5,532 nt of DNA from Candidatus Iainarchaeum sp. (GCA_003559395.1 PWLL01000037.1:1-5532); one strand, 5' to 3'. Shown: positions 1 through 5,532, counted from the first letter of the stretch. Notes: generated by a model not told the origin, from the letters alone. Program-made: numbers and translations.

Positions 1-170
1 ACGACCGCAACGCCCCGGGGTCTGGCGGACAGGGCGGCGGCGGCGACGGCGTCGTCATCGTCGCCTACGCGTACACCGAAGACACCGACGACCCGGCGAA
101 CCTGCAAGCGACGGTGGACGGGTCCGACGTGCACCTGACCTGGGACCCCTCACCGCTGGTGCCCGCATGA
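1..170 (+). CDS. 3' end of a glycine-rich minor tail-type protein (partial; the start lies upstream of the window)
   Basis: The frame is open from nt 3 to TGA 168-170. It translates to DRNAPGSGGQGGGGDGVVIVAYAYTEDTDDPANLQATVDGSDVHLTWDPSPLVPA*. A Gly run followed by DGVVIVAY is the C-terminal signature I associate with glycine-rich minor tail proteins of actinobacteriophages. The stop overlaps the next start (ATGA at 167-170). Confidence 0.7.
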   Translation, partial: DRNAPGSGGQGGGGDGVVIVAYAYTEDTDDPANLQATVDGSDVHLTWDPSPLVPA

Positions 171-511
171 GCTTAGACGTCCAGGTCGAGCACTGGTGGG
201 GTCATCTCCCACTTGAGATCTTCGATGGGCTCGATGGTCCATCGGGAGGGGTGACGCGCATCTATATCCGTCGTGGGGCCGAGACGATGATCCTGTCTGG
301 GTTCGACAACTACTGGATCGGTGGCGAAAGGTTCGGGCTCTTCAACGACGAAGAGAACTTCGACTGGTACGAGGGCGAACAATCGGCAGGGTGGTGTTGG
401 CCTGAAGGCAACAACCCTCGTCGTGACGATCTGCCGATCCCTGACGATGCGATCATGTGGCGTGGCGTGATGTTGCCTGACGATCAGGCGAAGGAAGTGG
501 GGCTGTTATGA
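167..511 (+). CDS. hypothetical Trp-rich 114-aa protein in the tail module
   Basis: This is the ORF given in the track. It has ATGA stop/start overlaps at both ends (167-170 and 508-511), which implies translational coupling with its neighbours. Its GC-rich codon usage matches the flanking genes. It has 7 Trp in 114 aa. I recognise no family. Confidence 0.7.
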   Translation: MSLDVQVEHWWGHLPLEIFDGLDGPSGGVTRIYIRRGAETMILSGFDNYWIGGERFGLFNDEENFDWYEGEQSAGWCWPEGNNPRRDDLPIPDDAIMWRGVMLPDDQAKEVGLL

Positions 512-3153
512 CCACCCGCTTCTTCTTCCAGAACACCTCCAATGAGCCTGGCACGGGGACCGACGAACCGCACGTCCGTGACCTTGCCGAAGCGCAAGGT
601 GATGCGGGGACGGTGTCGAACTCGGCGGGCAACACCTCTACCGACACGGAGGTGATGCGGTTCCAACGGCAGGTCGATGTCGAGGGCATCGAGAACATCG
701 CCGGGTCCATCCGGGTGACGGTGTTGACGGCCGACACGGCGTTCTCGCTGGAACTGCGACGCTACGACTCCAACGGCACGACCCTACTGGGGACGGGTGA
801 CAGGTCGCCTGAGTTCGACACGGTCGGGGTGCACACGTTCTCGCTGAACTCGTTGTCCCTGGACTGGCAAGAGGGCGACGTCCTTGCGATCACGGTCTAC
901 CACCGTCGTACGGGTGGACATGGCGGCAACGACTTCACGGTTGCGACCGGCGATGCGGATTCGTATGTAGATGTGAACGTGGTGGAGGCCGACCCGGTCG
1001 TTGAGGGCAGTGCTGATGATCTCGCCCCTTCAGCCATCGACGAAGTCGCGGGTTCGATCTCGGTCACAGGGTCAGCAACTGAACAAGCGCCTGTTGCTGA
1101 AGATCATGCTCAGGGCGACCTCATCGTCCCGCTTGAAGGGACGATCACTGATACAGCCCCAGTAGCCAGTGATCATGTCCAGGCTGAGGTAACGGTTGCG
1201 GCGACGGGAGAGGATCTCGCTTCCGCAGCTACCGACGAGGTTGCTGGATCGATAGAGATCACGGGGTCGATCGCCGATACAGCCCTTGCGGCAACCGATG
1301 AAGTTCAAGCTCAGGCCAGCGTCACTGGCTCTTCCCAGGACAGTGCTCCGTTAGCAACCGATCAGGTCTCGGGTTCGATCGGTGATGGGGTCGTCGGGTC
1401 CGCTACGGATGAAGCGCCATCGGCGAGTGACCATGCCGTCGGTGAGATCACTTCCACGATCACCTACTCCTCTGGTTCCAACGTCGTCACGGCGGAGATC
1501 GTTAGCGCTGTCGTCACAGGCGCGATCGATGACGCTGCTCCTGTTGCGAGCGATCACGCCGTAACTTCTTTCGCGGTAGACGCGACCGCTGAGGATCTCG
1601 CACCTGTTGCCACGGATCATGCACAGGTCGAGACCACGGTAGTTGTGACTGCCGATGATCTTGCGCCATCGGCGAGTGACCATGTCGAAAGCTCGATAGC
1701 TTCAGAGCCGGGTTCGATCACCGACATCGTGCCATCGGCGAGCGACCACGCTCAGGCCGAGATCACGGTCACGGCCTCAGCCGAGGATCAGGCTCCGAGT
1801 GCGACCGATCACGCAAGCCTCTCTCTGGCTCTTGAGGGTCAGGCGAGCGACGAGGCACTTGCAGCTCATGATCATGCTCAGGGGGAACTGAAGACTTCTG
1901 CTGCTGCGCAGGATGCTGCTGCCTCACCAACCGATCAGATCGAAGGCTCTACCGAGGTCGCGGGTCAGGCAGATGATGTCGCGGCTTCGCCTTCTGACCA
2001 TGTTGAAGGATCGTTCGAGGTTGCGGGTCAGATCGATGACGTTGCACCTTCGTCTTCCGACCATGTTGAAGGATCGGTTCAGGCTGAGCCAGGGACGATC
2101 GCAGATGTTGTTCCGGCTGCTGAGGATGTGGCAGAAGGATCGGCCACGGTCACGGGTACGGCTGATGACCTCGCCCCTTCGGCCACGGATGAGCTGACTG
2201 CAACCACTTCGGTTGTAGGGACGGCGAGCGATACATCCCTCGCAGCATCCGACGATGTGCTGGCAACGCTCATCGCGACTTCGACAGCGCACGATGTCGC
2301 GCCCCTTGCGAGTGACGCGCTCGAAGGAAGCCTCGGGGTCACAGGTCAGGTAGATGACCAGGCTCCTGTTGCACGAGATCATGTCCAGGCCGACATCCCG
2401 GCCGAGCCTGGGACGATCCACGACTTCGCTCCCTCCGTGCATGACGAGGCTCAGGCTCAGGTGAGCTTCTCGGGGAGCGCAGAAGATCTCGTCCCCGCAG
2501 CAAGTGACGAACTCCAGGTCCAGATCACCCTCGATGCTTCCCTGGATGACCAAGCCCCGGCTGCACACGATCAAGCTTCGGCTGAGACTCAGGTCACGGG
2601 GACGGGAGAGGATCAGGCTCTCGCTGCACAGGATCAGGCCGATGCCTCGATCACGGTCACCTCTACCACCGATGACCTCGCCCCTGTGGCGCATGACGAG
2701 GTCACGGGCACGATCACCGAGGCGACCACCGGCACGATCACCGACCAGGCTCCGTCGGCATCGGATCTCGCTCAGGCGGAACTTGCGGTCACTGCCAGCG
2801 TCTCCGACGAAGCGCCTGCGGCGTTCGACGAGATCGTCGGTGTCATACCAGCGATCGGTGACATCACCGACCTCGCTCCCGTGGCGTTCGACCACATCAC
2901 GGGCATCAGTGGTGAGATCCGAGCCATCAGGATCATCGTCGATGGTCCGGGTATCTCCAAGATCGTCCAGGGCGCGAACCGTGCGCAGTTCTTCACCCAC
3001 GGTCCTGGTCAGTCGCACCTCAGAGAGGGGATCGCGATCTCGTATGTGACCTCGGGGGTCGAGATCTCGGCGACTCATATCTTCGGACCAGGGGCATCTC
3101 GTAAGGTTGCGGGACCAGAGGGCTCACGCGTACCCACGGGTCCAGCGATTTAG
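508..3153 (+). CDS. 881-aa repeat-containing putative tail fibre or minor tail protein: N-terminal globular domain of about 168 aa, about 29 x 21-aa acidic repeats, and a 78-aa basic GPG-motif C-terminus
   Basis: It is the longest ORF in the window. An AAGGAAG Shine-Dalgarno sequence lies at 491-497, and the ATG at 508 overlaps the upstream stop. The repeat period of 63 nt is exactly 21 codons. Differences between repeat units are often synonymous, which argues for selection on this frame. It sits directly after a glycine-rich minor tail gene. The tail fibre function is inferred from position and architecture only. Confidence 0.88.
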   Translation: MTTRFFFQNTSNEPGTGTDEPHVRDLAEAQGDAGTVSNSAGNTSTDTEVMRFQRQVDVEGIENIAGSIRVTVLTADTAFSLELRRYDSNGTTLLGTGDRSPEFDTVGVHTFSLNSLSLDWQEGDVLAITVYHRRTGGHGGNDFTVATGDADSYVDVNVVEADPVVEGSADDLAPSAIDEVAGSISVTGSATEQAPVAEDHAQGDLIVPLEGTITDTAPVASDHVQAEVTVAATGEDLASAATDEVAGSIEITGSIADTALAATDEVQAQASVTGSSQDSAPLATDQVSGSIGDGVVGSATDEAPSASDHAVGEITSTITYSSGSNVVTAEIVSAVVTGAIDDAAPVASDHAVTSFAVDATAEDLAPVATDHAQVETTVVVTADDLAPSASDHVESSIASEPGSITDIVPSASDHAQAEITVTASAEDQAPSATDHASLSLALEGQASDEALAAHDHAQGELKTSAAAQDAAASPTDQIEGSTEVAGQADDVAASPSDHVEGSFEVAGQIDDVAPSSSDHVEGSVQAEPGTIADVVPAAEDVAEGSATVTGTADDLAPSATDELTATTSVVGTASDTSLAASDDVLATLIATSTAHDVAPLASDALEGSLGVTGQVDDQAPVARDHVQADIPAEPGTIHDFAPSVHDEAQAQVSFSGSAEDLVPAASDELQVQITLDASLDDQAPAAHDQASAETQVTGTGEDQALAAQDQADASITVTSTTDDLAPVAHDEVTGTITEATTGTITDQAPSASDLAQAELAVTASVSDEAPAAFDEIVGVIPAIGDITDLAPVAFDHITGISGEIRAIRIIVDGPGISKIVQGANRAQFFTHGPGQSHLREGIAISYVTSGVEISATHIFGPGASRKVAGPEGSRVPTGPAI
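1012..2916 (+). repeat. in-frame tandem array of about 29 degenerate 63-nt (21-codon) units inside the 881-aa CDS
   Basis: Residues 169-803 parse into units of 21 aa. A few are 22-23 aa, one is 41 aa and probably holds an extra degenerate unit, and the last is a partial 18-aa unit. The consensus is x-x-D-x-A-P-x-A-x-D-[HEQ]-[VA]-x-[GA]-x-[IV]-x-V-x-G-[ST]. Examples are ADDLAPSASDHVESSIASEPGS and ADDVAASPSDHVEGSFEVAGQ. Asp at unit position 10 is present in all 29 units. Asp at position 3 is present in 28 of 29. Confidence 0.9.
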
Positions 3154-3157
3154 GAGG
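3152..3157 (+). promoter_or_regulatory. Shine-Dalgarno sequence (AGGAGG) for the 113-aa ORF
   Basis: A perfect AGGAGG lies 4 nt upstream of ATG 3162. It overlaps the TAG stop (3151-3153) of the 881-aa gene. Confidence 0.8.
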
Positions 3158-3161
3158 CGAC

Positions 3162-3503
3162 ATGTCCATCACATTGCAGAGAGAGACGACCGAGTACGTC
3201 TACGTCGGGATCCAGGGCAGCACGGTCACCGGTGATGTCGAGATGGCGTTTCTCGAAGCTGGGCTGCGCCCGGACACCGTGGACTGGCACAGCTCGGTCA
3301 AGGTCGAGGACGACCAGAGCCCCCTCTGGGAGGATGCCCAGACTTCGGGGATCGATGGGGACTGGTTCGTCGCGTGTCTGGTCGGGGAGTTCGGCACCGG
3401 GGGCAAGGTGCTCACTCCCGGTGATTACCAGCCCTGGGTCAGGCTCACCGATGACGTCGAGCGACCGGTGCGTATCACCCCGGTCACGGTGGAGATCGCA
3501 TGA
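3162..3503 (+). CDS. hypothetical 113-aa small tail-module protein, predicted beta-rich
   Basis: This is the ORF in the track, with a strong AGGAGG ribosome-binding site and GC-rich codon usage. The pattern ...DW..S...(35 aa)...LTPGDYQPWVRLTDD..PVRI.PV.VEIA resembles small conserved proteins I recall downstream of minor tail genes in actinophages. That recollection is unverified. Confidence 0.8.
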   Translation: MSITLQRETTEYVYVGIQGSTVTGDVEMAFLEAGLRPDTVDWHSSVKVEDDQSPLWEDAQTSGIDGDWFVACLVGEFGTGGKVLTPGDYQPWVRLTDDVERPVRITPVTVEIA

Positions 3504-3530
3504 TCCCTGAAAGGAAGATCGCATGATCCC
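3493..3530 (+). repeat. exact 15-nt direct repeat AGATCGCATGATCCC (3493-3507 and 3516-3530), offset 23 nt, spanning a gene junction
   Basis: Read directly from the sequence. Copy 1 contains the TGA stop of the 113-aa ORF together with an overlapping ATG. Copy 2 contains the ATG of the 71-aa ORF together with an overlapping TGA. Confidence 0.9.
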
Positions 3531-3738
3531 GTGGTTGAGGGTCCCCTATGTTCATGATCCTGCGGATCTCTCATCGATCCACATGGCCGTGGTCACCAAG
3601 GAGATCGAGGAATCCGACTGGAGACCCGCGTACCGGGATACGGTCAAGGGTCAGAAGTACGTTCAGGTCAGGCACACGCTCAAGAAAGGGGAGCAGGTAT
3701 GGATCCGCGACTCGAACGGGATCCGACGAGCCATCTGA
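3523..3738 (+). CDS. hypothetical 71-aa protein, possibly a shortened paralog of the preceding 113-aa ORF
   Basis: This is the ORF in the track. A GAAAGGAAG Shine-Dalgarno sequence lies at 3509-3517, 5 nt before the ATG. It shares motifs with the upstream ORF: [VI]-x-M-A-[FV]..., DW[HR], and L-x-x-G-[DE]-x-(x)-W-[VI]-R. It is short, so the coding call is less certain. Confidence 0.6.
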   Translation: MIPWLRVPYVHDPADLSSIHMAVVTKEIEESDWRPAYRDTVKGQKYVQVRHTLKKGEQVWIRDSNGIRRAI

Positions 3739-3787
3739 CTCCGATGAGTTGTGGACGTGACCTGACAGACGCGCGACCATCGGATAA

Positions 3788-3852
3788 CGCGGCCCCCCGG
3801 TGCCTTCCCAGGTTCCTTCCCCTGATCTGGTTCTCCTCGCCGGGGGGTCGCG
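3788..3852 (+). terminator. GC-rich stem-loop at the module boundary; a non-canonical terminator or regulatory structure
   Basis: Positions 3788-3800 (CGCGGCCCCCCGG) pair with 3840-3852 (CCGGGGGGTCGCG). That gives 13 pairs including one G-U, and two more pairs are possible inward. The loop is about 35-39 nt and pyrimidine-rich. No U-tract follows, so this is not a canonical intrinsic terminator. It lies in the only sizeable intergenic gap (3739-3875), exactly where base composition changes. Confidence 0.35.
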
Positions 3853-3875
3853 CATGACTTCGGGGAGTTGATCTG

Positions 3876-5507
3876 ATGACGATCGATTTCACGCCCGAGG
3901 CAGGACCGAACTATGACGTGTTGGGTCGTGTCGTAACTGTGAATGTTCCGGGAGCTGAGATACTTGCTTCCGAACATGGTGTCGAATGGGCTCTTCGTGG
4001 CGCTACCACGATCGGACTCTCGTTTGGTAATGGGTATCACGGTGTTCTTTGGTTGGACCCCGGTAATGGGCAGGATGCTCAACTTTTCGTTCAAGTTGCT
4101 CGTTTAGATGACACAGGGAAGTTCGTCGATGGTGATTATGCAGTCTTCGATCATACTCATTTCTTCACCAAACTTGTTGATGGCTACCATGATGCGCGAA
4201 TAAATATCGAGGGGCATGAGAATATAGGGTATCCGTTCTTCAAGATCGTAGAACCTGGGAAGGTTCTTGTCGTTGCGAACATCTATGTTTCTAGCGATGA
4301 ACCTGGCTATGGCTCACAATTTAGGGTAGTGACGACTGCGATGGTGGTGTCGTACAGTGGTGGCAGCATCACGGTTGATTTCACTGAAACCTTCGATACG
4401 TACAACAACCCTATGAATCTCAGTGAGACAACATTTTCGTCATGGTTGGCCCAGACCAAACCTATCACTGCTGCTGTTGCATACAAAGATGGGATGTTGA
4501 ACCGCGTCGTTTATAGTCATGGTGGTTCGACGGAGCAGAGGGTCATCATCGTCGCGCAGTACATCGAGTATTCCAACGGGGTCATCGTCGCTCATGCTCC
4601 TTATATCATGCATGATTCCGATGACCTTCCAGAGGTCACGGCAGATCCATCAGCTTGGCTGGGTGCCACATCTGTCGAGATCGATGGCAAAGCGTTCATC
4701 TTCGACGCTATCAGCACAAGTACCGTCCATCCCATGGGGTATTACATCAATGTCTGTGATGAGAACTCGTTGATCGCGCAGCTCAATGTCAATGACCATA
4801 TCAGTCATACAGACTTGTTCAACTTCTGGGGAGCGGAAGAACTCAAGATCGGCAGATTGAAGAATGGCAACATCATCGTGGCGAAGATCGACGTGCGATA
4901 TTACCCCTATGTCTGGGACGTCATAGAAGTAGCGTATGACGGAACGAATCTCAGTGTTGTGAGTTCGACATCAGCCGAGATGTCAAGGTGGCTGTGCGGA
5001 TTCATCGAGTATGAAGACACGGTTGGGTTCTATGGACAGAATTGGGGTAACGAGAGTGTTAGTGGGCAAGAAGCCATCGATTATCATGAGCAGTTCGGAT
5101 TGCCTAATCATGATGAATCTGACGTGTTTACTATCACCATCACTGATGTCACGAGTGCGACTCCAGAGGGAGTGGTTGCACGAGATTATGAGATACCTTT
5201 CAGTTGGCATTATGATTACGGATATAGACTTGTGCAGGAACATCCTTTCACCCATTCCTACTTAGAGAACGGGATGCTCATCTCGATCGGATTGGTGGAT
5301 CCTACAGCAGTATTTAGCTGGGAGGCAGGTGATGTGAGTGGCCTTTCGGGTTGGACGATGCCACTTATCACTGATGATGTGGTCCCTAGTCTCCGCCTCA
5401 TCCAGCGGGACGATGACAACGAGTTCGGTTCCTCACGGATCGAACGGGTCCAGGTATCTTCAGCTCAGAAGAGCGGGAGGATCCCTGGTCCGAACGCCTA
5501 CTGGTGA
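3876..5507 (+). CDS. hypothetical 543-aa acidic, aromatic-rich protein that is compositionally foreign (low GC); candidate distal tail or receptor-binding protein, or a moron
   Basis: It is a 1632-nt open frame in DNA of about 40-50% GC, where stops would be frequent by chance. GGGGAG at 3862-3867 lies 8 nt before the ATG. The alternative-frame ORFs here are short. I recognised no catalytic or nucleotide-binding motif and no signal peptide or transmembrane segment. Confidence 0.85.
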   Translation: MTIDFTPEAGPNYDVLGRVVTVNVPGAEILASEHGVEWALRGATTIGLSFGNGYHGVLWLDPGNGQDAQLFVQVARLDDTGKFVDGDYAVFDHTHFFTKLVDGYHDARINIEGHENIGYPFFKIVEPGKVLVVANIYVSSDEPGYGSQFRVVTTAMVVSYSGGSITVDFTETFDTYNNPMNLSETTFSSWLAQTKPITAAVAYKDGMLNRVVYSHGGSTEQRVIIVAQYIEYSNGVIVAHAPYIMHDSDDLPEVTADPSAWLGATSVEIDGKAFIFDAISTSTVHPMGYYINVCDENSLIAQLNVNDHISHTDLFNFWGAEELKIGRLKNGNIIVAKIDVRYYPYVWDVIEVAYDGTNLSVVSSTSAEMSRWLCGFIEYEDTVGFYGQNWGNESVSGQEAIDYHEQFGLPNHDESDVFTITITDVTSATPEGVVARDYEIPFSWHYDYGYRLVQEHPFTHSYLENGMLISIGLVDPTAVFSWEAGDVSGLSGWTMPLITDDVVPSLRLIQRDDDNEFGSSRIERVQVSSAQKSGRIPGPNAYW

Positions 5508-5521
5508 GAAGAGTTCAGGAC

Positions 5522-5532
5522 ATGAACGATCA
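5522..5532 (+). CDS. possible 5' end of the next gene (ATG AAC GAT CA...)
   Basis: An ATG lies 14 nt after the TGA at 5505-5507. It is preceded by purine-rich GAGAAGAG (5506-5513) with an 8-nt spacer. Only 11 nt are visible. Confidence 0.2.

What the first reader, a model, noticed from the sequence alone, without database searches (positions are those of the whole stretch)
508..5507. System-level hypothesis: resident repeat shaft, two small accessory proteins and an imported tip form a modular host-range cassette
Four consecutive + strand genes follow the glycine-rich minor tail gene. They are a long regular-repeat protein, two small related beta-type ORFs, and a large ORF of strikingly different base composition separated by a GC-rich hairpin. 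This matches the usual logic of phage adsorption apparatus, with a conserved proximal part and an exchangeable distal specificity part. However, none of the four products matches a family I can name. If they act together, the unit is an undescribed adsorption or cell-surface-interaction module. An alternative is that the low-GC gene is unrelated cargo, such as a moron, exclusion gene or defence gene, inserted at the tail/lysis boundary.
Basis: inference. Interest (0 to 1): 0.6.

Follow-up and report, generated by a model that had tools for sequence, protein, structure and literature searches.

The report
Swappable phage surface-protein cassette island
This stretch of an uncultured soda-lake phage is a hot spot where whole surface-protein genes are exchanged between related phages, and its last gene joins interchangeable propeller-shaped "bodies" to a fixed 41-residue tail piece, an arrangement opposite to that of textbook phage receptor-binding proteins.

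Summary
The sequence features are real: an 881-aa protein with about 30 copies of a 21-aa repeat, a 113-aa ORF, a 71-aa ORF, a GC-rich hairpin, and a 543-aa ORF whose G+C drops from about 0.62 to 0.49. None of the products matches Pfam, PHROGs, NCBIfam, PADLOC, PDB sequences or 50,697 phage records.

Metagenomic relatives change the interpretation.
- The window edges (1-87 and 5390-5532) are 95-100% nucleotide-identical to other soda-lake contigs. Everything between them is replaceable.
- The repeat protein, the 113-aa gene and the 71-aa gene form a trio that recurs in distant phages. Here the trio is an alternative allele, not a resident part.
- The 543-aa gene is one of at least six unrelated bodies at the same locus. 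One body is Pfam RCC1. The others are read as Asp-box, PQQ-like or other all-beta proteins.
- All bodies end in the same tag, PSLRLxQRDDDNEFGSSRIERVQVSSAQKSGRIPGPNAYW. The tag is under purifying selection (13 synonymous against 2 non-synonymous codon changes).
- The terminase large subunit gene lies immediately downstream.
- A second backbone shows the same swap.
- In a third backbone the tagged gene occurs without the trio.

Best reading: this is a hypervariable island of virion-surface adhesin genes, and the tag is a conserved docking or assembly peptide. The function is inferred, not shown. The two small ORFs are not related to each other.

The parts
1..170 (+). 3' end of the glycine-rich (Gly_rich_2) protein gene. 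Bases 1-87 form the conserved left border of the variable island. Bases 88-167 encode a divergent FN3-like tail. The stop codon is at 168-170.
   Evidence: Window 1-49 is 100% and 33-87 is 95% nt-identical to L008/L009. The L008 702-aa product hits PF21722 at E = 1.1e-15. Identity ends after the peptide AYAYTEDT. The window lacks 35 codons that L008 has, at a GGC-rich direct repeat.
167..511 (+). 114-aa acidic ORF of unknown function. It is conserved upstream of the repeat proteins, and its stop overlaps the next start.
   Evidence: 40% identical to the L003 95-aa product (E = 1e-15) and 29% identical to the L001 97-aa product. All three share the C-terminus PDDxAxE(L/V)GLL.
508..1017 (+). N-terminal domain of the 881-aa protein (residues 1-170), predicted all-beta.
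   Evidence: It aligns from residue 1 with P0003. The AF2 model has strands only, with pLDDT 50-59 at best. There is no Pfam or PDB match.
1018..2931 (+). Array of about 30 repeats of 21 aa (63 nt). Consensus: D-x-A-P-x-A-S-D-H-A-Q-A-x-h-T-V-T-G-T-A-D.
   Evidence: The DNA copies are only 60-77% alike, with spacings that are multiples of 63 nt, so the array is old and not a recent slippage product. Shaft proteins of seven relatives have periods of 18-22 aa with unrelated repeat sequences.
2932..3153 (+). C-terminal domain of the 881-aa protein, about 73 aa built of 9-10-aa 'GPxxSxxxx' mini-repeats, plus the stop codon. This is the part shared with shaft proteins of relatives.
   Evidence: The alignment of six C-termini shows weak similarity, 17-36% identity. 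In every relative this domain lies immediately upstream of the 113-aa-family gene.
3162..3503 (+). 113-aa acidic protein, a member of a small conserved family that always follows a repeat-shaft gene.
   Evidence: 56-59% identical to the L012/L013 products and 31-37% identical to those of L001, L008 and L014. Twenty alignment columns are invariant, including ERPVR. No family or PDB match.
3523..3738 (+). 71-aa basic protein, the second small partner of the trio. It is unrelated to the 113-aa protein.
   Evidence: 40-41% identical to the L012/L013 homologues (E = 1e-10 to 1e-12). It shares only a W.R....P.DL motif with the 72-aa family of L001, L008 and L014. No similarity to the 113-aa protein.
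3788..3852 (+). GC-rich stem-loop with 15-bp arms (3788-3802 and 3838-3852) and no U-tract. It straddles the recombination joint.
   Evidence: The 5' arm is absent from L004, which carries the same downstream gene.
3808..3875 (+). Leader that travels with the 543-aa gene. It contains a fossil of the junction seen in L004 (GTGAG|CCAGGTTCCTTCCCCTGA) and a GGGGAG ribosome-binding site.
   Evidence: Window 3808-5532 is 99.8% identical to L004 141-1865, while the sequences upstream of the joint are unrelated. In L004 the joint lies 5 nt after the stop of the 72-aa gene.
3876..5381 (+). Low-GC body of the 543-aa protein (residues 1-502), probably a beta-propeller. This is the exchangeable cassette.
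   Evidence: GC 0.485. Only 4 full-length relatives were found among 1.84 billion representative proteins. The AF2 model has pTM 0.62 and is all-beta over residues 44-390. The best Foldseek hits are 7-bladed propellers (PL24/PL25/PL42 lyases, GH145, sialidases) at E = 6e-7, but TM-scores are only 0.36-0.41.
5382..5507 (+). 41-aa C-terminal tag VPSLRLIQRDDDNEFGSSRIERVQVSSAQKSGRIPGPNAYW plus the stop codon. Bases from about 5448 onward are nucleotide-identical to the backbone.
   Evidence: The tag is shared at 56-98% identity by proteins with unrelated bodies. Tag codons 1-22 show 13 synonymous against 2 non-synonymous differences between the window and L007. Codons 23-41 and the downstream DNA are identical.
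5508..5532 (+). Start of the conserved spacer. In relatives it leads, with or without an intervening 62-aa Cys/His-rich ORF, to the terminase large subunit gene.
   Evidence: Identical in L004, L007-L011, L015 and L016. The downstream gene hits PHROG 2, terminase large subunit, at E = 2e-6, and has a Walker A motif GMGGKS.

Best explanation
The finding lies inside a hypervariable island of about 5.3 kb (window ~88 to ~5447) in an uncultured, halophile-adapted tailed phage. The island is bounded on the left by the Gly_rich_2 domain of a fibre-type protein. It is bounded on the right by the second half of a 41-aa C-terminal tag and by the terminase large subunit region.

The island contains two sub-cassettes that assort independently.
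1. A fibre block. It consists of a shaft protein (variable N-terminal head, a repeat rod with an 18-22-aa period, and a weakly conserved C-terminal domain) plus two small obligate partners of about 100-113 aa and 71-74 aa. These partners are assembly factors or adaptors.
2. A single gene whose variable N-terminal body, here probably a 7-bladed beta-propeller, is joined to the invariant tag.

Proposed mechanism (inferred): the tag is a short peptide that folds on binding. It docks the interchangeable binding modules onto a conserved virion site, or nucleates their assembly there. Replacing the body by recombination retargets the virion without changing the docking interface. One crossover falls at the stop codon of the upstream gene and the other falls inside the tag.

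Shown here: the modular architecture, the breakpoints, the allelic series and the purifying selection on the tag.
Inferred: that the proteins are in the virion, that they act in adsorption, whether they sit on the tail or the head, and what the tag binds.
For: Backbone and island borders:
- Window 1-87 and 5390-5532 are 95-100% identical to L008, L009, L015 and L016, while the interior is unrelated to them.
- Window 3808-5532 is 99.8% identical to L004, whose upstream gene is different.

Allelic series:
- At least six bodies share flanks that are 92-99% identical.
- A second backbone (L001 against L021) has the flanks (~100-aa and ~73-aa genes; tag plus terminase) 87-90% identical, with the body and the shaft unrelated. 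The breakpoints fall at the same positions.
- Fossil 5' ends of a displaced PQQ-type gene (VSEVLAVKAYD...) lie upstream of the L008 and L015 cassettes.

Tag:
- It is conserved across unrelated bodies and across three or more backbone types.
- Its codon changes are 13:2, 9:1 and 15:4 synonymous to non-synonymous in three pairwise comparisons.
- AF2 gives it no confident fold on its own, with pLDDT 26-41.
- The same body family (w543, P0004, P0005, P0006, P0012) carries four different tag variants, so body and tag are independent modules.

Bodies are binding-type folds:
- P0010 matches Pfam RCC1_2 at E = 6e-22.
- P0011 contains repeated S-x-D-x-G-x-T-W Asp-box motifs, read directly from the sequence.
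- L001 carries a faint PQQ_2 annotation.
- The 543-aa protein is propeller-like.
- The N-terminus has no signal peptide or transmembrane segment (read directly).

Structural context:
- Gly_rich_2 protein upstream.
- PHROG 3758 'virion structural protein' two genes upstream of the shaft in L001.
- Fibre-like giant ORFs lie upstream of the terminase gene in more distant relatives.
- All island proteins except the 71-aa one have pI 4.05-4.4, whereas the terminase is near neutral.
- No hit to defence-system models.
Against: - There is no homology of any of the four products to any characterised tail-fibre, receptor-binding, chaperone or decoration family.
- Both structure models are weak (pLDDT 56 and 40).
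- In the third backbone type the tagged gene is preceded by zinc-ribbon and other small, non-structural-looking genes, not by the fibre trio. Its only constant neighbour is the terminase gene.
- In L012-L014 the trio lies between a Mu-like portal and the head protease and major capsid genes. A capsid location is therefore as compatible with the data as a tail location.
- A conserved C-terminus with a variable N-terminus is not the polarity of canonical receptor-binding proteins.
- No virion proteomics, host or complete genome is available.
Confidence: 0.52

Rival explanations
1. The tagged gene (3876-5507) is accessory cargo, such as a moron or an exclusion, defence or anti-defence factor. It sits in the recombination-prone gap between the end of the structural genes and the terminase gene and has no functional link to the fibre trio.
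For: Low GC confined to the body. In backbone type C it is flanked upstream by zinc-ribbon and other small genes, with no trio. Its constant neighbour is the terminase gene, not the shaft. A hairpin and a 137-nt spacer separate it from the trio. Rapid turnover of sensor-like propellers would also fit a conflict system.
Against: No PADLOC, Pfam or NCBIfam hit for six different bodies. The proteins have no effector domain, no transmembrane segment and no signal peptide. A 41-aa tag held under purifying selection on otherwise unrelated bodies implies a shared partner encoded by the phage backbone. The acidic pI matches the virion-exposed proteins of the same contigs and not the near-neutral terminase. 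The tight synteny with the trio holds in two backbones.
Confidence: 0.17
2. The tag is not a docking peptide but a C-terminal folding or oligomerisation nucleus, like the foldon of T4 fibritin or the C-terminal assembly modules of tail-fibre assembly proteins. It is conserved because any body needs it to assemble. Attachment to the virion, if there is any, occurs elsewhere.
For: Many fibrous phage proteins fold from a conserved C-terminal element (established knowledge). Tail-fibre assembly (Tfa) proteins have a variable N-terminal and a conserved C-terminal part (PMC7882524, citing North et al. 2019). The tag reads as a possible hairpin (SLRLIQ, turn, RIERVQV) followed by a terminal aromatic residue.
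Against: Beta-propellers are self-contained monomeric folds that need no trimerisation nucleus. If the tag only oligomerises, no conserved element remains to attach such diverse bodies. The tag has no Pfam DUF4376 or Peptidase_S74 match. At 41 aa it is much shorter than known intramolecular chaperone domains.
Confidence: 0.15
3. The trio and the tagged protein are head appendages (capsid fibres or decoration proteins anchored by their C-termini, as in T4 Hoc) and not tail fibres.
For: In L012-L014 the trio lies directly upstream of the Mu-like prohead protease, a 126-135-aa gene and the major capsid gene, with the portal gene upstream. In the tag clade the cluster abuts the terminase and Mu-like portal genes. 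C-terminal anchoring with outward-facing N-terminal domains is the polarity of Hoc (established knowledge).
Against: The left border is a Gly_rich_2 fibre-type protein. In circularly permuted genomes the end of the tail module normally abuts the terminase gene. Relatives L029-L031 have giant fibre-like ORFs in that position. This rival changes the location but not the adhesin logic of the main explanation.
Confidence: 0.12
4. Artefact: the window is a chimeric metagenome assembly, or the conserved tag only reflects a homology arm or an overlapping cis-acting site (pac site or promoter) with no role as a peptide.
For: The contigs at this locus are short, and the last ~60 nt of the gene plus the spacer are 100% identical among variants.
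Against: The joint at 3807/3808 shares only a 12-nt imperfect direct repeat, far below assembler k-mers (the related ENA contigs are named k141). Both window edges belong to the same backbone. The first 22 tag codons differ at many synonymous sites while the peptide is kept. Divergent backbones keep the peptide at 42-66% identity with diverged DNA.
Confidence: 0.04

Closest known systems
Horizontally shared host-recognition modules (tail fibre plus cognate chaperone) of phages, for example the Alteromonas phage module described in PMC10579305, and the classical tail-fibre mosaicism of T-even, lambdoid and P2/Mu phages
   Same: A block of fibre gene plus small downstream partner genes moves as a unit between otherwise unrelated phage backbones. 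The breakpoints fall at gene or domain borders. The left border is a conserved N-terminal domain of a fibre-type protein.
   Different: There is no sequence or profile similarity to any of those fibres or chaperones. The island is nested, with two sub-cassettes that assort independently. The last gene has its conserved part at the C-terminus.
Tail-fibre assembly proteins (Tfa of Mu, lambda and P2; DUF4376)
   Same: The gene lies downstream of a fibre gene. Its product has a variable N-terminal part and a conserved C-terminal part (PMC7882524, citing North et al. 2019). Some stay on the mature fibre.
   Different: Tfa proteins are about 175-200 aa with a DUF4376 C-terminal domain of roughly 100 aa. 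Here the bodies are 250-540-aa propeller-type domains, the conserved part is only 41 aa, and there is no Pfam hit.
T4 Hoc and similar capsid decoration adhesins
   Same: Outward-facing binding domains lie at the N-terminus and a conserved C-terminal element fixes the protein to the particle. The gene neighbourhood includes head genes.
   Different: Hoc uses Ig-like domains and a folded C-terminal capsid-binding domain. No homology was found. A capsid location is not shown here.
Dockerin-cohesin (cellulosome) and encapsulin cargo-loading peptides, as analogues of mechanism only
   Same: A short conserved C-terminal tag on many unrelated proteins directs them to one common scaffold.
   Different: There is no sequence relation and the biological context is different. 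The binding partner of the tag is unknown.
Receptor-binding proteins with a conserved N-terminal anchor and a swapped C-terminal head or depolymerase (lactococcal siphophages, Klebsiella phage tailspikes; established knowledge)
   Same: Plug-in exchange of the binding or enzymatic domain against a constant attachment element, giving population-level allelic series.
   Different: The polarity is inverted, with the constant element at the C-terminus. The bodies are propellers and not beta-helix spikes or jelly-roll heads.
Repeat shafts of viral fibres (the triple beta-spiral of adenovirus and reovirus fibres, and beta-helical phage fibres)
   Same: Long arrays of short repeats of constant period (here 21 aa, and 18-22 aa in relatives) with a conserved Pro/Gly turn and alternating small or hydrophobic residues. 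The period is conserved while the sequence is not.
   Different: The repeat consensus is new. The fold could not be modelled (pLDDT 40). The trimeric state is unknown.

Membership tests
Pfam Gly_rich_2 (PF21722) fibre-type protein (upstream gene, left border of the island) | Profile match to the glycine-rich domain above the gathering score | tested here: met
   The window holds only the last ~28 residues of the domain. The nearly identical gene in L008 (95-100% nt identity over window 1-87) scores 58.7 bits against a cutoff of 24.3, E = 1.1e-15.
Known phage tail-fibre, tailspike or receptor-binding families (Pfam, PHROGs, NCBIfam) | Significant profile match of any of the four products | tested here: not met
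   Zero significant families for the 881-, 113-, 71- and 543-aa products. tblastn against 50,697 phage records gave no match.
Tail-fibre assembly proteins (Tfa, DUF4376) | Conserved C-terminal DUF4376 domain; size about 175-200 aa; gene directly after the fibre gene | tested here: not met
   No Pfam hit for the 543-, 113- or 71-aa products. The conserved C-terminal element is 41 aa. Only the positional criterion and the variable-N/conserved-C logic are met.
C-terminal intramolecular chaperone domain of fibres and spikes (Peptidase_S74) | Conserved C-terminal domain of about 150 aa with an autocleavage serine | tested here: not met
   No Pfam match. The tag is 41 aa.
Beta-propeller fold (body of the 543-aa protein) | Six to eight four-stranded blades closing into a ring | tested here: inconclusive
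   The AF2 model has pTM 0.62 and mean pLDDT 56, with repeated strand groups over residues 44-390. The top Foldseek hits are all propellers at E = 6e-7, but TM-scores are 0.36-0.41 and rmsd is about 10 A.
Polysaccharide lyases PL24/PL25/PL42 or GH145 (top structural neighbours) | Conserved catalytic residues in the central cleft; sequence-family membership | not tested
   The resemblance is at fold level only, with 10-11% identity. The model is too weak to place catalytic residues.
Conserved trio 'repeat shaft + ~100-113-aa protein + ~71-74-aa protein' (defined here) | The three genes lie adjacent in this order; the shaft has an 18-22-aa period and a Pro/Gly mini-repeat C-terminus; the 113-aa family keeps its ERPVR motif | tested here: met
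   Window, L001, L008/L009, L012, L013, L014, L015 and L021.
Tagged-protein family (defined here) | C-terminal P-[SP]-L-R-L-x-[QRK]-R-D-D ... P-x-[AT]-Y-[WF] tag at the very end of the protein, on an unrelated body | tested here: met
   The 543-aa product ends in the tag. Eleven further proteins in the exhaustive search and extra metagenome loci carry it.
Invertible or diversity-generating host-range switches (Mu G segment, phiCh1 int1, DGR) | Long inverted repeats flanking the variable part plus an invertase, or a template repeat plus a reverse transcriptase | tested here: not met
   Only 17-23-nt imperfect inverted repeats occur in the window. No recombinase or reverse-transcriptase ORF is present in the window or in the related loci examined.
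Known anti-phage defence systems (PADLOC) | Profile match | tested here: not met
   Zero families for the five window products and five alternative bodies.

The most novel reading that the evidence does not exclude
The 41-aa tag is a new plug-in docking peptide, a phage 'dockerin'. Through it, unrelated beta-propeller adhesins or enzymes are mounted by their C-terminus on one conserved virion socket. Host range is then changed by swapping whole bodies in a single double crossover. The shaft proteins of the same island show the same inverted polarity (variable N-terminal heads, conserved C-terminal domain next to two small adaptors). This would define a previously undescribed way of attaching receptor-binding modules in tailed phages.
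Probability: 0.33. Interest if true: 0.75.

Novelty: new variant of a known kind. Interest (0 to 1): 0.56.

Why it matters
Modular exchange of host-recognition genes is well known. In nearly all studied cases, however, the constant attachment element is N-terminal and belongs to a recognisable family.

Here an uncharacterised phage lineage has no relatives among 50,697 reference phage records, and its 543-aa protein has only a dozen relatives among 1.84 billion representative proteins. This lineage shows a natural allelic series of at least six unrelated bodies on one constant 41-residue C-terminal tag. The recombination breakpoints can be mapped to the codon.

If the tag is a docking peptide, it would be a minimal, portable handle for mounting arbitrary binding domains on a virion, which is useful for phage engineering. 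It would also be a sequence signature for finding receptor-binding genes in viral dark matter.

The island is also a clean example of nested cassette exchange, with the fibre block and the tip assorting independently within one environmental population.

Tried and rejected
Searches that found nothing:
- Megablast of the whole window, and tblastn of the 881-, 543- and 114-aa products and of the relatives' terminase, against the phage collection.
- Exact-sequence look-ups of the 543- and 881-aa products.
- IMG/VR scans with the 543-aa protein, the N-terminal domain of the 881-aa protein and the tag.
- A genome-contig scan with the 113-aa family.
- The third word-indexed protein search, run with the family alignment, returned only the query's own cluster.
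- Rfam (gathering thresholds), a tRNA scan and PADLOC.
- Promoter and terminator consensus scans were at chance level.

Matches rejected as spurious:
- The tag hit in a Rhizobium MAG (L020) is out of frame and contains stop codons.
- The PDB hit 9mt4_Q to the repeat region (E = 0.05-0.06) is compositional, judged from the alignment.
- The gp30/gp29 'gateway' PDB hits to the 543-aa family profile (E = 0.002, 80 residues) were not pursued, being weak and local.

Analyses that failed or were blocked:
- The AF2 model of the 881-aa protein has pLDDT 40.5 and was not used for fold search.

Ideas tested and dropped:
- That the C-terminus of the L003 1200-aa protein contains a fused 113-aa-type domain. 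hhalign probability was 0.3%.
- That the two small ORFs are paralogues.
- That the tagged protein is a small terminase subunit because it sits directly upstream of the large subunit gene. The bodies are 250-540-aa propellers with no DNA-binding or oligomerisation features. This was rejected by reasoning, not by a test.
Full report
**1. What is in the window**

The + strand carries these features:
- the end of an ORF (1-170);
- a 114-aa ORF (167-511);
- an 881-aa ORF (508-3153);
- a 113-aa ORF (3162-3503);
- a 71-aa ORF (3523-3738);
- a 137-nt spacer;
- a 543-aa ORF (3876-5507).

The 881-aa product has three parts: an N-terminal domain (residues 1-170), an array of about 30 units with consensus D-x-A-P-x-A-S-D-H-A-Q-A-x-h-T-V-T-G-T-A-D, and a 73-aa C-terminal domain made of 9-10-aa GPxxSxxxx mini-repeats. 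Twenty of the 28 spacings between repeat anchors are exactly 21 residues. The lag-21 autocorrelation is 0.46 against a shuffled maximum of -0.39 +/- 0.03. At DNA level the copies are only 60-77% alike, so the array is old and is maintained at protein level.

G+C is 0.58-0.64 up to about 3900 and 0.46-0.51 within the 543-aa gene. The drop is confined to the gene body (0.485). The last 129 nt return to 0.597.

The spacer folds into a 15-bp GC-rich stem (3788-3802 with 3838-3852; -63.4 kcal/mol, z = -3.0) and has no U-tract.

The two small ORFs are not related to each other (no BLASTP alignment at E <= 100). A 114-aa gene lies between the glycine-rich gene and the 881-aa gene.

**2. No known family**

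The following searches returned nothing significant for any of the products:
- Pfam, PHROGs, NCBIfam and PADLOC;
- PDB sequence searches;
- megablast and tblastn against 50,697 phage records;
- Rfam and a tRNA scan.

The word-indexed search of 5.8 billion proteins found only the 543-aa protein's own cluster (P0001) and two relatives of the 881-aa protein.

The exhaustive phmmer search of 1.84 billion representatives found 12 proteins for the 543-aa query. Four are full-length relatives at 30-43% identity. Seven match only its last ~42 residues, at 56-95% identity.

**3. The C-terminal tag**

The seven partial matches are 293-537 aa long and have bodies unrelated to the query and mostly to each other.
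- P0010 hits Pfam RCC1_2 at E = 6e-22.
- P0011 carries repeated S-x-D-x-G-x-T-W Asp-box motifs, read directly from the sequence.
- P0009, P0013 and the L001 428-aa protein are PQQ-like (faint annotation).
- P0007 and P0008 appear related to each other from their sequences (not formally aligned) and are all-beta. P0014 is different again.

All end in (I/V)PSLRLxQRDD(D/S)NEFGSSRIERVQVSSAQKSGRIPGPNAYW.

More divergent variants of the tag occur in other backbones:
- type B: ...NDHGHPRI(S/A)REQVTSEQKSIRRGPGTY(W/F);
- type C: IPPLRLK(R/K)RDDHNKYGSPRL...TPNTYW;
- a shortened form in P0004;
- further forms in L019 and L044.

The same body family (the 543-aa protein, P0004, P0005, P0006 and P0012) carries four different tag variants, and one tag variant carries at least six bodies. 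Body and tag are therefore independent modules.

Codon comparison shows what is selected. Between the window and L007, 13 of the first 22 tag codons differ synonymously and only 2 differ non-synonymously. Other pairs give 9:1 and 15:4. Codons 23-41 and the downstream spacer are nucleotide-identical. The peptide is thus under purifying selection, and one recombination breakpoint lies inside the tag.

**4. The allelic series and the breakpoints**

Contigs from soda-lake sediment and related ENA/Logan assemblies share two flanks at 92-99% nt identity. These contigs are L004, L007-L011 and L015-L018 (samples JGI SL_1KL_011_SED and SL_3KL_010_SED, and ERZ27301261-63). The shared flanks are the upstream 72-aa gene (ending ...VGYVRPSS*) and the downstream spacer plus terminase gene. 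Between the flanks they carry bodies of 543, 515, 537, 372, 326/334 or 293 aa.

The downstream gene is a terminase large subunit. It has a Walker A motif GMGGKS and hits PHROG 2 at E = 2e-6, with a weak Terminase_6C match.

L004 carries the very same 543-aa gene as the window (99.8% identical over window 3808-5532). Its upstream sequence is the 72-aa gene, not the window's 71-aa gene. The joint lies 5 nt after that gene's stop codon.

Upstream of the L008 and L015 cassettes lie fossil 5' ends (11 to about 40 codons, VSEVLAVKAYD...) of a PQQ-type gene like P0013 or the L001 428-aa gene. These are scars of replacement.

A second backbone behaves in the same way. L001 and L021 are 87% identical over the 103- and 73-aa genes and 90% identical from the start of the tag into the terminase gene. 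Their bodies (a 428-aa PQQ-like protein against a 551-aa member of the window's family) and their shaft genes are unrelated.

**5. The 'resident' part is also a cassette**

Window 1-87 is 95-100% nt-identical to the glycine-rich gene of L008/L009, whose 702-aa product hits Gly_rich_2 (PF21722) at E = 1e-15. Identity stops right after the end of that domain (AYAYTEDT).

Beyond that point the two versions differ.
- In L008 the same polypeptide continues into 20-aa repeats and a C-terminal domain, followed by 102- and 72-aa genes.
- In the window it ends in a short FN3-like tail, followed by the 114-, 881-, 113- and 71-aa genes.

The window's 113- and 71-aa proteins belong to the subfamily of the IMG/VR phages L012 and L013 (56-59% and 40-41% identity). 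They do not belong to the subfamily of L008, L001 and L014.

Both window edges therefore belong to the same backbone as L004 and L008, and the whole interior (~88 to ~5447) is variable. It comprises two sub-cassettes that assort independently: the fibre block (88-3807) and the tagged body. Relative to an L004-like genome it is the fibre block, not the low-GC gene, that is the newcomer. The low GC shows only that the body has a different, older origin. Other bodies range from 0.49 to 0.56.

**6. The trio**

The order 'shaft protein, then a ~100-113-aa protein, then a ~71-74-aa protein' is conserved in the window, L001, L008/L009, L015, L021, L012, L013 and L014.

The shafts differ completely in their N-terminal heads:
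- a WD40-like propeller in L001 (weak Pfam hits);
- Asp-box propeller and lectin-like parts in L014 (read from the sequence);
- FN3-like domains in L021 (read from the sequence);
- Gly_rich_2 in L008 (Pfam).

They also differ in repeat sequence. They share a period of 18-22 aa and a weakly similar Pro/Gly mini-repeat C-terminus.

The AF2 model of the 881-aa protein was unusable (pLDDT 40.5). It shows only one long strand per repeat.

The small proteins have no detectable relatives of known function.

In L012-L014 the trio has no tagged gene after it. It sits directly upstream of a Mu-like prohead protease (PF10123), a 126-135-aa gene and the major capsid gene. In L013 a Mu-like portal gene and lysis genes lie further upstream and a tail-tube gene lies downstream.

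In the tag clade the terminase gene is followed by a Mu-like portal gene (L022).

**7. The body of the 543-aa protein**

The AF2 model, built with a 5-sequence alignment, has pTM 0.62 and mean pLDDT 56. It is all-beta, with repeated strand groups over residues 44-390 and a disordered C-terminus that includes the tag.

The best Foldseek matches are seven-bladed propellers: PL24/PL25 ulvan lyases, a PL42 lyase, GH145 enzymes and sialidases. E-values reach 6e-7, but TM-scores are only 0.36-0.41. In BFVD the matches are mostly uncharacterised phage proteins, plus a T7-type fibre with a propeller body.

I take 'propeller-like binding or glycan-active domain' as likely and draw no conclusion about enzymatic activity.

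**8. Interpretation**

Shown here:
- the nested modular island and its codon-level breakpoints;
- the allelic series in two backbones;
- purifying selection on the tag;
- the conserved trio;
- the structural-gene context, comprising Gly_rich_2, PHROG 3758 'virion structural protein' in L001 and fibre-like giant ORFs upstream of the terminase gene in more distant relatives.

Inferred: that these are virion-surface adhesins, and that the tag docks the bodies to a conserved virion site.

The main caveats are the following.
- There is no homology to characterised proteins.
- The structure models are weak.
- The tagged gene occurs without the trio in a third backbone, where it follows zinc-ribbon and other small genes (L022-L024, L005 and L044).
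- The trio occurs next to head genes in L012-L014.

The four genes are therefore not an obligate unit, and a head location cannot be separated from a tail location.

The rivals are cargo or moron, a foldon-like assembly element, head decoration, and artefact. They are scored in the rival-explanations section.

**9. Comparison with known systems**

The logic matches horizontally shared host-recognition modules (for example PMC10579305) and classical fibre mosaicism.

The variable-N, conserved-C layout recalls Tfa chaperones (PMC7882524, citing North et al. 2019) and the C-terminal anchoring of T4 Hoc. The one-tag-many-cargo logic recalls dockerins and encapsulin loading peptides.

Membership in every one of these families was tested where possible and was not met.

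I therefore class the finding as a new variant of a known kind. The components are undescribed protein families, and the polarity of the exchangeable gene is inverted.

**10. Verdict**

Interest is 0.56. The most novel reading still open is a portable C-terminal docking peptide for plug-in receptor-binding modules. I give it a probability of about one third.

Noticed in passing
window 3788-3852 with the joint at 3807/3808: The GC-rich hairpin is assembled from two segments of different origin. The 5' arm belongs to the fibre block and the 3' arm belongs to the leader that travels with the 543-aa gene. L004, which has the same gene, lacks the 5' arm. I have no explanation for why a 15-bp complementarity spans a recombination joint. 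It might mark a shared recombination or termination element in the donor.
   Followed up: partly
window 1-87 compared with L008 1244-1438: The window's glycine-rich gene lacks 35 codons (PDPTTGAPSHGVDGTGGGGGGGNRQEETGGGPGGDG in L008). The gap lies between two GGC-rich direct repeats, which points to an in-frame slippage or recombination deletion inside the glycine-rich domain.
   Followed up: partly
L008 3252-3401; L015 ~1446-1640; window 3808-3826: Fossil 5' ends of a displaced PQQ-type cassette (VSEVLAVKAYD..., like P0013 and the L001 428-aa gene) remain upstream of the newer RCC1-type and Asp-box-type genes. A 7-codon remnant (VSQVPSP*) is present in L004 and is partly retained in the window's leader.
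   Followed up: yes
L007 1949-2137, L009 3481-3669, L016 ~505-693; absent in L015 and L001: A 62-aa Cys/His-rich ORF (MRHDDHYRNLPW...) is present or absent between the tagged gene and the terminase gene in otherwise near-identical backbones. This is a second small indel polymorphism.
   Followed up: no
window ORFs and L001, L003, L009 proteins: The island proteins are extremely acidic (pI 4.05-4.4), apart from the 71-aa protein (pI 9.5). The terminase (pI 5.5-6.3), the 62-aa ORF (6.4) and some L003 proteins (10.5-11.6) are not. This suggests virions exposed to brine and a 'salt-out' bacterial host, rather than a haloarchaeon. L013, a distant relative that carries the 113/71 pair, encodes amidase-like and GH19-like (GRGYIQLTG motif) lysis genes, so its host is a bacterium.
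   Followed up: partly
L003 5091-10445: In L003 the 1200-aa repeat protein has no 113/71 partners and a different, larger C-terminal region. It is followed on the same strand by what I read as connector-like, major-capsid-like (433 aa) and scaffold-like (277 aa) genes. These labels are my reading only (the 433-aa product has no Pfam hit). This gene order is unusual and was not examined further.
   Followed up: no
L004, L005, L010, L011, L017, L018 and other contigs of 1.2-2.9 kb: Assemblies break repeatedly at this locus. The contigs end at the conserved flanks, as expected when many alleles share identical borders in one sample. This means complete genomes of this phage group are probably systematically missing from short-read assemblies.
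   Followed up: no
L019 (GC 0.68) 3-1346; L044 1982-3352: More distant tag variants (VPPLRLFQRDDD...NVYL and EPPLRMRQRDDQSEKWG...ANTYW) occur in other GC contexts. The one in L044 again lies directly upstream of a terminase gene and after a zinc-ribbon gene. The tag is therefore older and more widespread than the soda-lake population.
   Followed up: partly
L008 84-593; L083 1516-2286: A protein with repeated W...G..Y..G..V.H.G..W...N.WEPG motifs, which look like CBM5/12-type carbohydrate-binding repeats to me, lies next to the glycine-rich gene in L008 and directly upstream of the terminase gene in L083. The L008 protein has no Pfam hit.
   Followed up: no
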